Shown piece by piece: positions 11,041 through 11,441 of a stretch of DNA of 64,000 nt. The position numbers and the translations under genes were made by a program. Position 1 is the first letter of the stretch. Each line of letters starts with the position of its first letter. The DNA is from Escherichia coli (GTDB taxonomy: Bacteria > Pseudomonadota > Gammaproteobacteria > Enterobacterales > Enterobacteriaceae): assembly GCF_044324875.1 (NCBI RefSeq), contig NZ_CP172185.1, one strand, 5' to 3'. The notes under the pieces are model-generated. The model did no database searches and had not been told where the DNA came from. It saw only the letters and a list, made by a program, of their open reading frames with translations.

Positions 11041-11441
11041 TAAGTCGGTATTCGTCGAAAAAAATCTCCCTGGTTGCACCTCCTGAAATATTCAATATTA
11101 ACTGCAATGCTATTGAGAATTATTTTTCATTTAATTTCATATAGATGCCGATGATGAATGCTTCATTCACATGATAATTTATTTATTTCATGAATTAATT
11201 GCATTATTTAATTCATCGGTGTTATCGGATTCAATCTCAATTGCGCCATATTTTAAGTTGAAATAAATGCGTTAAAAATATAAATTAAAGAAAAGATGTA
11301 TTGACTTAATGAATAAATATATTCGCTAAATCAATATATTTATTCTGTTAAAAACAATATCCAGATTTCGAATATTTGTAACTATTTAACCCTGTGCAGT
11401 TTATTTGGGCTGCGTAATCATCTATTTATGAGGAATTTCAT

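What the first reader, a model, noticed from the sequence alone, without database searches (positions are those of the whole stretch)
11041..11441. ydbL is followed directly by ydbA: the feaRB-tynA-paa cluster present at this position in K-12 is absent
In K-12 order, as I recall it, ydbL (b1383) is followed by feaR, feaB, tynA and the paa phenylacetate-catabolism operon (about 20 kb) before ydbA. Here only a roughly 400-bp extremely AT-rich intergenic region separates ydbL from ydbA. The phenylethylamine/phenylacetate pathway is therefore missing from this locus, either lost or never acquired. The AT-rich spacer is also a likely H-NS-bound ydbA promoter region.
Basis: partly seen in the sequence, partly recalled or inferred. 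Interest (0 to 1): 0.45.

Follow-up and report, generated by a model that had tools for sequence, protein, structure and literature searches.

The report
Phenylacetate gene cluster absent beside ydbL
This E. coli lacks the 19-kb phenylethylamine/phenylacetate breakdown cluster that K-12 carries between ydbL and ydbA, which is a common and already published strain difference; here the absence belongs to a very divergent ydbL–ydbA allele block exchanged by recombination, not to a simple deletion.

Summary
In the window ydbL (10717-11040) is followed by a 401-bp spacer of 25-31% GC and then ydbA (from 11442). In K-12, 19.2 kb holding feaR-feaB-tynA-paaZ-paaA..K-paaX-paaY lies between the two genes. 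No fea/tynA/paa orthologue is anywhere in the 64 kb, and genomes with the same junction almost never carry paaABC elsewhere.

This is ordinary and published. Of 5426 complete E. coli genomes, 3097 have the full cluster, about 1100 keep only remnants, and 1211 have nothing. The window's junction occurs in 100 genomes, and O157:H7 has an analogous junction.

The refinement is that this is not a clean deletion of a K-12-like locus:
- Identity to K-12 holds up to the first codons of ydbL and then collapses.
- YdbL is 63% identical to the K-12 protein, with dS about 1.6.
- The spacer is unalignable with K-12 or O157.
- The YdbA passenger is 35% identical to K-12's.
- No feaR/paaX scar is present, unlike strain 042 and B2 strains.

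The ydbL-spacer-ydbA block is about 99.8% identical to unrelated strain 7/2, while the flanks differ by roughly 1-5%. That pattern points to exchange by homologous recombination. H-NS binding was not tested.

In this window ydbA is also broken by IS1.

The parts
7888..10527 (+). ydbH, conserved left flank. It is ordinary E. coli core sequence, with dS 0.096 against K-12.
   Evidence: The exact 879-aa protein also occurs in paa-positive genomes (L004-L008).
10524..10709 (+). ynbE, the last gene of the conserved flank. Its DNA is nearly identical to K-12 (dS 0.025, no amino-acid change).
10717..11040 (+). ydbL, a deeply divergent allele and the first gene of the variable block. Divergence from K-12 and 042 starts within about the first 10 nt of the gene.
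   Evidence: 63% and 65% amino-acid identity to the K-12 and O157 alleles. About 30 mismatches per 100 nt from 10700 onward. dS 1.6 and dN/dS 0.16 against K-12. Boundary alignment. Precomputed Pfam PF07027. The functionally essential residues of PMC13015361 are retained.
11041..11441 (.). AT-rich ydbL-ydbA spacer (GC 25-31%), the position where K-12 has 19.2 kb of fea-tynA-paa. It holds no remnant of those genes and is not alignable with the K-12 or O157 intergenic regions.
   Evidence: No Rfam match at a convincing score. No terminator-like site.
11258..11286 (+). The only sigma-70-like hexamer pair in the spacer (TTGAAA-17-TAAATT). It lies in the better-conserved ydbA-proximal half and is a candidate ydbA promoter, not shown to function.
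   Evidence: 1 site; shuffles give 3.0 ± 1.4, so no enrichment. (11246-11441 is 89% identical to variant L054; 11041-11245 is 72%).
11442..15663 (+). ydbA (BigA/YdbA-type autotransporter), 5' part: signal peptide, proline-rich repeats and a divergent passenger. It is cut off by IS1.
   Evidence: NCBIfam auto_BigA hit, below the model's cut-off because the gene is split. Intact as 2026 aa in L009 and 7/2. 35% identity to the K-12 N-terminal part and 57% to O157.
11744..11979 (+). 30-nt tandem repeat (7.5 copies) encoding the PVPPDDGGDT proline-rich linker of YdbA.
15664..16431 (+). IS1 inserted in ydbA, flanked by a 9-bp target duplication ATGCTGGGG (15655-15663 and 16432-16440). This insertion is specific to the window.
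16432..18299 (+). ydbA 3' part (C-terminal passenger and beta-barrel). Here similarity to K-12 returns (92.6% DNA identity), marking the right-hand limit of the strongly divergent block.
18416..19730 (+). IS1414 (IS256 family) between ydbA and pdxI, flanked by an 8-bp target duplication CAACTCAT. It is shared with L009.
19830..20690 (+). pdxI (ydbC), conserved right flank.

Best explanation
The window carries one of several old, mutually very divergent haplotypes of the ydbL-ydbA region of E. coli. This haplotype consists of its own ydbL allele, a 401-bp AT-rich spacer and its own ydbA autotransporter allele. It has never contained the fea-tynA-paa genes in its recent history. It sits between ordinary core flanks (ynbE on the left, the ydbA 3' end and pdxI on the right) and moves between E. 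coli lineages by homologous recombination in those flanks. The absence of the phenylethylamine/phenylacetate pathway here therefore follows from which allele block the lineage inherited, not from a local deletion of a K-12-like locus.

Functional consequences, all inferred:
- The strain should be unable to use 2-phenylethylamine or phenylacetate.
- ydbA transcription would start in the ydbA-proximal half of the spacer and is probably silenced by H-NS, as at the K-12 counterpart.
- In this particular strain ydbA is in any case inactivated by IS1.

Shown here: gene order, absence of the cluster, boundaries, divergence levels, population frequencies and the recombination signature. Inferred: the phenotype, promoter use, H-NS silencing and the age or source of the haplotype.
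For: Order and absence.

Sharp left boundary: there are 0-1 mismatches per 100 nt to K-12 and to the paa-positive loci L004/L007 up to about 10700. From there ydbL shows about 30 per 100, and beyond it the sequence is unalignable.

Depth of the alleles: ydbL dS is 1.6 against K-12. By comparison, ydbH dS is 0.096 within E. coli and about 1.0 between E. coli and E. albertii. YdbL is 63-66% identical to every other Escherichia allele. The only close relatives (87-100%) come from E. coli sources.

No scar: there is no feaR or paaX/paaY remnant in the spacer. Strain 042, E2348/69 and ST131 do keep a feaR'-'paaX-paaY remnant.

Recombination signature:
- The block from about 10.7 to 18.4 kb differs from strain 7/2 by 0-4 mismatches per 500 nt, while most flanking bins differ by about 5-34 per 500.
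- The closest complete genome, 042 (99.0%), has a different state at this locus.
- Metagenome protein P0014 is a window-type/K-12-type mosaic within ydbL and is followed by feaR-feaB-tynA.
- The identical YdbH protein is found next to both states.

Linkage: all four contexts of window-type ydbL variants (100%, 96% and 87% alleles) show ydbL, a spacer of about 400 bp, then ydbA.

No paa elsewhere: a chimeric query (window ydbA plus K-12 paaABC) gave 3257 places in 3252 genomes. At most 5 genomes can therefore hold both pieces.
Against: The donor or origin of the haplotype was not found: no species representative and no database protein outside E. coli sources is close to it. 'Ancient polymorphism' and 'import from an unsampled relative' therefore cannot be separated.

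The near-identity of the block between lineages could partly reflect selective constraint rather than recent transfer, although the block includes 400 bp of non-coding DNA.

The source genome outside the 64-kb window could not be searched. Absence of paa elsewhere is inferred from relatives.

Promoter and H-NS statements are untested, and the simple promoter scan shows no enrichment.
Confidence: 0.72

Rival explanations
1. Simple local deletion: a K-12-like ancestor lost the 19-kb fea-tynA-paa segment in place, by illegitimate or IS-mediated recombination, leaving ydbL next to ydbA.
For: Deletions of this cluster do happen in E. coli. Strains 042, E2348/69 and ST131 show a feaR'-'paaX-paaY scar, E. 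coli B keeps only feaR-feaB-tynA, and internal paa deletions are published (PMC4951805). The window is rich in IS elements.
Against: No scar or remnant is present. The genes on both sides are not the K-12 alleles: ydbL has dS 1.6 and the YdbA N-terminus is 35% identical. The spacer is unrelated to both K-12 intergenic regions. No IS lies at the junction.
Confidence: 0.06
2. Ancestral absence: ydbL next to ydbA (or to pdxI) is the original Escherichia state, and fea-tynA-paa was inserted later in the lineages that have it. On this view the window simply never acquired it.
For: E. albertii and E. whittamii have ydbL followed directly by pdxI, with no fea-paa. 1211 of 5426 E. coli genomes have no trace of the cluster. 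The window haplotype shows no remnant.
Against: The ydbL-feaR-feaB-tynA-paaZ-paaA order also exists in other genera (Entomohabitans teleogrylli; Enterobacteriaceae bacterium RIT691 as far as the contig goes) and in the E. coli species representative, next to a different ydbL allele. The linkage of ydbL with fea-paa is therefore old, not a recent E. coli insertion. The window's closest complete relative, 042, carries a remnant of the cluster, so this lineage's background probably once had it.
Confidence: 0.2
3. Assembly or scaffolding artefact that joined ydbL to ydbA across a collapsed region.
For: None.
Against: The same contiguous junction is found in 100 complete genomes and in independent assemblies.
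Confidence: 0.01

Closest known systems
E. coli K-12 ydbL-feaRB-tynA-paaZABCDEFGHIJKXY-ydbA locus (b1383-b1401)
   Same: The flanks and their order are the same: ldhA, ydbH, ynbE, ydbL on the left and ydbA, pdxI, ydbD, ynbABCD, azoR, hrpA on the right. As in K-12, ydbA is a pseudogene broken by an IS.
   Different: The 17 fea/tynA/paa genes and ynbG are absent. ydbL is 63% identical at the amino-acid level. The YdbA N-terminus is 35% identical. The intergenic DNA is unrelated. The interrupting IS is IS1 at a different site, rather than IS2 and IS30.
E. coli O157:H7 (phylogroup E) ydbL-ydbA junction
   Same: The architecture is the same: ydbL, an AT-rich spacer of about 410 bp, a BigA/YdbA-type autotransporter, then pdxI. 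There is no fea-paa remnant. About 270-300 complete genomes have this junction.
   Different: It is a separate haplotype. YdbL is 65% identical, the spacer is not alignable, and the YdbA N-terminus is 57% identical. Divergence from K-12 already starts in the ydbH 3' end and ynbE. The breakpoint is not shared with the window.
Scar-type paa-negative loci (EAEC 042, EPEC E2348/69, ST131 and other B2 strains)
   Same: They lack the pathway at the same chromosomal position.
   Different: They keep a K-12-type ydbL plus a feaR 3' fragment fused to a paaX fragment and paaY, which is a true deletion scar. Strain 042 also lacks ydbA altogether. The window has none of this.
Published 'region of genomic heterogeneity' around paa (Goldstone et al. 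2016, PMC4951805; Leimbach et al. 2017, PMC5422975)
   Same: These papers describe the paa locus as variably present between the core genes ydbH/ynbE/ydbL and ynbC/ynbD/azoR, with ydbA variably full-length, and report paa as missing in their B2 and E genomes. The window is one more instance.
   Different: They treat ydbL as a plain core gene. Here ydbL itself is part of the variable block, as a deep allele.
E. albertii and E. whittamii locus
   Same: There is no fea-paa after ydbL.
   Different: ydbA is also absent, and ydbL is followed directly by pdxI. Their ydbL alleles are nearer to the O157 type (80-89% amino-acid identity) than to the window's (64-66%).

Membership tests
fea-tynA-paa phenylethylamine/phenylacetate catabolic cluster | Orthologues of feaR, feaB, tynA, paaZ, paaA-K, paaX and paaY present between ydbL and ydbA, or anywhere in the window | tested here: not met
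   tblastn with the K-12 proteins finds only paralogous aldehyde dehydrogenases at 25-38% identity. blastn of the window against K-12 has no match to L002 4822-30479.
fea-tynA-paa phenylethylamine/phenylacetate catabolic cluster | Cluster present elsewhere in the genome | tested here: inconclusive
   The source genome beyond the 64 kb is not available. In complete genomes with the same ydbA allele, at most 5 of about 100 could carry paaABC anywhere (3257 places in 3252 genomes).
Deletion-scar type paa-negative locus (042 / B2 type) | feaR 3' fragment fused to paaX fragment plus paaY downstream of a K-12-type ydbL | tested here: not met
   The scar is seen in 042 and in E2348/69 and ST131. The window spacer has no such remnant, and its ydbL is not K-12 type.
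YdbL / DUF1318 (PF07027) periplasmic partner of YnbE | PF07027 domain, position after ynbE, and retention of residues shown essential in K-12 YdbL (L24, R28, E35, Y40, N58, R61, Y65, L68, N72, I79, K86, L87, W104, K107) | tested here: met
   PF07027 is precomputed for the identical protein. Synteny is shown. In the alignment all listed residues are identical except I79V. R90K and E60S fall at positions where the paper found substitutions tolerated. No NCBIfam model matched.
BigA/YdbA autotransporter adhesins | BigA_N, BigA repeat domains and a C-terminal beta-barrel in one protein of about 2000 aa | tested here: met
   The intact orthologue in L009 (2026 aa, identical DNA apart from the IS1) carries PF25784, PF27417, PF27415 and PF25783. 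The two window fragments hit NCBIfam auto_BigA at 582 and 818 bits, below the 3400-bit cut-off of that 'exception' model. This makes it family-level membership, not the Salmonella BigA equivalog (37% identity).
H-NS-associated 'promoter island' upstream of ydbA (as in K-12 paaY/ydbA, PMC3661553) | Very AT-rich intergenic DNA upstream of a horizontally variable gene | tested here: met
   GC 0.25-0.31 over 11000-11500.
H-NS-associated 'promoter island' upstream of ydbA (as in K-12 paaY/ydbA, PMC3661553) | Abnormally high density of promoter-like sites | tested here: not met
   One sigma-70-like site against 3.0 ± 1.4 in shuffles. This is a cruder scan than PlatProm, which defined the islands.
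H-NS-associated 'promoter island' upstream of ydbA (as in K-12 paaY/ydbA, PMC3661553) | H-NS occupancy in vivo | not testable with these tools
   Needs ChIP. The K-12 region that was shown to bind H-NS is not homologous in sequence.
IS1 | 768-bp element with IS1 transposase and a 9-bp target duplication | tested here: met
   NF033558 at 145.6 bits (cut-off 100). The element is 768 bp with the target duplication ATGCTGGGG, and three 100%-identical copies are present.

The most novel reading that the evidence does not exclude
ydbL, usually counted as a core gene and now known as the periplasmic modulator of the YdbH-YnbE lipid bridge, is in E. coli part of a multi-allelic block together with the surface autotransporter ydbA. 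The block is older than the species: its alleles differ by 35-37% at the amino-acid level, synonymous sites are saturated, and the boundary falls at the first codons of the gene. The block is shuffled among lineages by recombination. Which block a strain inherits decides whether it has the phenylacetate pathway. The deep ydbL alleles could be maintained by hitch-hiking with diversifying selection on ydbA, or, less likely, by a functional link between YdbL variants and their neighbouring autotransporter.
Probability: 0.45. Interest if true: 0.35.

Novelty: already known. Interest (0 to 1): 0.15.

Why it matters
Variable carriage of feaRB-tynA-paa at this position is a documented part of the E. 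coli accessory genome. The practical consequence is a predictable metabolic difference: no growth on 2-phenylethylamine or phenylacetate.

The one element that goes slightly beyond the literature I could read is that the indel is embedded in deep, recombining ydbL-ydbA allele blocks. That matters in three ways:
- Pan-genome pipelines may treat ydbL as core and split or merge its alleles.
- Work on YdbL structure and function gains a natural variant with 37% of its residues changed and all essential residues kept.
- It explains how presence or absence of paa is distributed across phylogroups.

Tried and rejected
(1) I suspected Shigella, because of three identical IS1 copies and only 97.8% best identity. 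I rejected this. That ranking favoured hits that covered the IS1. An IS-free 16-kb query gives E. coli 042 at 99.0%, and exact proteins are labelled E. coli, with HrpA identical to 042's.

(2) I looked for a donor of the divergent block:
- The genome-contig scan with a YdbL alignment gave at best 66% identity.
- A 5.8-billion-protein search with YdbL found nothing between 73% and 87% except E. coli or metagenome variants.
- A search with the YdbA passenger found only other E. coli alleles at 31-65% and Salmonella BigA at 37%.
No donor was found.

(3) I looked for hidden features in the spacer. Rfam gave only a 23-bit snoRNA chance hit. Repeats were only short AT-rich ones, and no terminator was found.

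(4) A sensitive blastn (word size 7) of the spacer against the K-12 and O157 intergenic regions and the 042 scar gave only weak AT-rich matches, mostly on the opposite strand.

(5) The first multi-sequence alignment suggested a gradient of divergence towards the junction. A finer 100-nt profile showed a step instead.

(6) In one search I asked for 'spread' rows rather than 'best', so individual window-type genomes were not listed. The aggregate place counts still answered the question.

Full report
**1. What is in the sequence**

The window around the finding reads as follows:
- ldhA, 6691-7680, minus strand
- ydbH, 7888-10527
- ynbE, 10524-10709
- ydbL, 10717-11040
- a 401-bp non-coding spacer, 11041-11441
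- an ATG at 11442 that opens a large autotransporter gene

Gene names come from the RefSeq annotation of the collinear region of E. coli strain 7/2. The spacer is very AT-rich: GC is 0.25-0.31 in 200-bp windows, against 0.42-0.55 around it. The autotransporter fragments hit NCBIfam auto_BigA. The intact orthologue in a near-identical assembly carries the BigA_N, BigA repeat and BigA_beta Pfam domains.

**2.

Yes. In K-12 DH10B, ydbL is followed by feaR, feaB, tynA, paaZ, paaA-K, paaX, paaY and a 21-codon ORF. Only then comes ydbA, which is interrupted by IS2 and IS30. There are 19,185 bp between the ydbL stop and the ydbA start.

A blastn of the window against that locus aligns window 6218-11038 with K-12 up to 5 nt before the ydbL stop. 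Nothing aligns again until the 3' third of ydbA. tblastn with eight K-12 Fea/Paa proteins finds no orthologue anywhere in the 64 kb. The only hits are the paralogous aldehyde dehydrogenases at 35.9-37.3 kb and 62.3-63.7 kb. The cluster is absent from this locus and from the window.

**3. How common is this?**

I queried 5426 complete E. coli genomes with the K-12 segment from feaR to paaY:

| State | Genomes |
|---|---|
| At least 80% of the segment present | 3097 |
| Any match at all | 4215 |
| No match | 1211 |

The difference between the first two rows is mostly genomes with small remnants. Strains E2348/69 and ST131 keep a feaR fragment plus paaX/paaY. E. coli B keeps only feaR-feaB-tynA.

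The exact junction of the window is contiguous in 100 genomes, at 98-99.5% identity. O157:H7 has the same architecture, with ydbL, a 413-bp spacer and then ydbA. That version is present in about 270-300 genomes.

The literature already describes this. Goldstone et al. 2016 call the paa locus a region of genomic heterogeneity between the core genes ydbH/ynbE/ydbL and ynbC/ynbD/azoR, with ydbA variably full-length (PMC4951805). Leimbach et al. 2017 report paa missing in their B2 and E genomes (PMC5422975). As a presence/absence observation, the finding is therefore already known.

**4. Is paa elsewhere in such genomes?**

The source genome outside the window is not available. As a proxy I searched with a chimeric query made of 2.4 kb of the window's single-copy ydbA passenger plus 1.5 kb of K-12 paaABC. 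It matched 3252 genomes at 3257 places. At most five genomes can therefore hold both pieces. Genomes with this ydbA allele essentially never carry paaABC anywhere.

**5. The junction is not a clean deletion**

A 100-nt mismatch profile shows a step at the start of ydbL. Up to about 10700 there are 0-1 mismatches per 100 nt in the last kilobase to K-12 and to paa-positive genomes that encode the very same YdbH protein (L004, L007). Across ydbL there are about 30 mismatches per 100 nt. Beyond ydbL the sequence is unalignable. The step falls within the first few codons of ydbL.

The divergence on either side of the spacer is deep:
- YdbL is 63% identical to the K-12 protein and 65% to the O157 protein.
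- Synonymous divergence of ydbL against K-12 is saturated (dS about 1.6), with dN/dS 0.16.
- For comparison, ydbH next door has dS 0.096 within E. coli and about 1.0 between E. coli and E. albertii.
- The spacer aligns with neither K-12 intergenic region nor with the O157 spacer, except for the ribosome-binding site and start of ydbA.
- The YdbA N-terminal 786 residues are 35% identical to K-12 and 57% to O157. The C-terminal part is 77-78% identical to both.

There is no feaR or paaX scar. The closest complete genome, EAEC 042 (99.0% over 16 kb), does have one: K-12-type ydbL, then feaR', 'paaX, paaY and pdxI, with ydbA gone.

The locus therefore exists in at least five states:
- K-12 type
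- scar type
- window type
- O157 type
- the E. albertii and E. whittamii type, in which ydbL is followed directly by pdxI

**6. Evidence that the block moves by recombination**

- From about 10.7 to 18.4 kb the window differs from strain 7/2 by 0-4 mismatches per 500 nt. Most 500-nt bins in the flanks differ by about 5-34, with a few quieter bins.
- The window's nearest relative, 042, carries a different state.
- The identical 879-aa YdbH is found next to both fea-paa and ydbA.
- Metagenome protein P0014 is a mosaic. Its residues 1-36 are window-type and 37-108 are K-12-type, and it is followed by feaR-feaB-tynA.
- Variants of the window-type ydbL (96% and 87% identity) are all followed by a spacer of about 400 bp and then ydbA.

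**7. Lost or never acquired?**

Outside Escherichia, the order ydbL-feaR-feaB-tynA-paaZ-paaA is found in Entomohabitans teleogrylli. It is also found, as far as the contig goes, in Enterobacteriaceae bacterium RIT691. The E. coli species representative has the cluster next to yet another ydbL allele. The ydbL-fea linkage is therefore old.

E. albertii and E. whittamii lack both the cluster and ydbA. No donor for the window's block was found. The best YdbL outside E. coli sources is about 66-70% identical. The YdbA passenger finds only other E. coli alleles and Salmonella BigA at 37%.

My reading is that the lineage's background probably once had the cluster, since 042 retains a scar. The present state would then have arisen by replacement with a paa-less block, not by deletion. 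The ultimate age or source of that block remains open.

**8. The spacer as a regulatory region**

No terminator-like site follows ydbL. One sigma-70-like pair (TTGAAA-17-TAAATT, 11258-11286) is found, which is fewer than in shuffles. Rfam gives nothing credible.

Compared with the most diverged variant of the haplotype (L054), the ydbA-proximal 196 bp are 89% identical and the distal 205 bp are 72% identical. This is a single comparison, but it is consistent with a promoter and 5' leader in the proximal half.

In K-12 the positionally equivalent paaY/ydbA intergenic region is listed among 78 H-NS-associated 'promoter islands' (PMC3661553). The H-NS idea is thus reasonable by analogy, but it was not tested and the two regions share no sequence homology.

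**9. State of ydbA and of the neighbourhood**

In the window ydbA is split by an IS1 (15664-16431) with a 9-bp target duplication. The gene is intact (2026 aa) in L009 and in 7/2. L009 is identical to the window at all but 2 of 15,663 positions.

An IS1414 sits between ydbA and pdxI (18416-19730, with an 8-bp duplication) and is shared with L009. Two further IS1 copies, both 100% identical to the first, lie at 22042-22809 (in ydbD) and 39337-40104.

**10. Verdict**

The phenomenon is ordinary and published. The added value is the anatomy: the absence is carried by a deep ydbL-spacer-ydbA allele block with a sharp boundary at the start of ydbL, exchanged among lineages by homologous recombination.

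The divergent YdbL keeps every residue shown to be essential in K-12 YdbL, with only I79V, R90K and E60S at interface positions, so it is probably functional. Interest is low for the finding as given. The deep allelism of a supposedly core gene is a modest side observation worth a note.

Noticed in passing
window 10717-11040: ydbL, normally treated as a core gene, is a deep allele here. It is 63-66% identical at the amino-acid level to all other Escherichia alleles, dS against K-12 is about 1.6, and the boundary is sharp at the first codons of the gene. All residues shown to be essential for YdbL function are still retained. At least three or four such alleles coexist in E. coli (K-12 type, O157 type, species-representative type, window type).
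   Followed up: partly
L055 39-365 (metagenome ERZ27281845), protein P0014: This is a natural mosaic ydbL. Residues 1-36 are window-type and residues 37-108 are K-12-type, and the gene is followed by feaR-feaB-tynA. It is direct evidence of recombination between the two haplotypes inside the gene.
   Followed up: yes
window 15664-16431: An IS1 insertion splits ydbA, with target duplication ATGCTGGGG. The gene is intact (2026 aa) in the otherwise 99.99% identical assembly L009 and in strain 7/2, so the inactivation is very recent.
   Followed up: yes
window 18416-19730; 22042-22809; 39337-40104: IS1414 (IS256 family, 8-bp target duplication CAACTCAT) sits between ydbA and pdxI. Two more IS1 copies are 100% identical to the one in ydbA. 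One of them lies in ydbD, where about 100 bp are missing relative to strain 7/2. The target of the third copy was not examined.
   Followed up: partly
window 500-2000 (ompN, ORF 612-1730 minus strand, 372 aa): The porin gene ompN is strongly divergent. It shows 132-152 mismatches per 500 nt to strains 7/2, 042 and O157, while neighbouring bins show 2-37. The 372-aa product is not in the 15-billion-protein collection as an exact sequence. This is another hypervariable surface-protein allele about 10 kb from ydbA.
   Followed up: no
L003 15001-16041 (O157:H7) compared with window 10000-11040: In O157:H7 the divergent segment starts earlier, in the 3' end of ydbH and in ynbE. Its ynbE and ydbL alleles are closer to E. 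albertii and E. whittamii (dS 0.35-0.73) than to K-12 (dS 0.83-1.77). This suggests introgression from another Escherichia lineage.
   Followed up: partly
L053 25552-26483 (E. coli 042): The closest complete genome, 042, has a different state of the locus: a feaR 3' fragment fused to a paaX fragment, then paaY, then pdxI, with ydbA completely absent.
   Followed up: yes
window 11744-11979: A 30-nt tandem repeat (7.5 copies, 89% matches) encodes PVPPDDGGDT units in the YdbA linker. Copy number and sequence differ between relatives and account for most of the 0.5% difference from the best database hits.
   Followed up: partly
window 11246-11441: The ydbA-proximal half of the spacer is 89% identical to the most diverged variant of this haplotype (L054), against 72% for the distal half. 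This hints at a constrained promoter or leader.
   Followed up: partly
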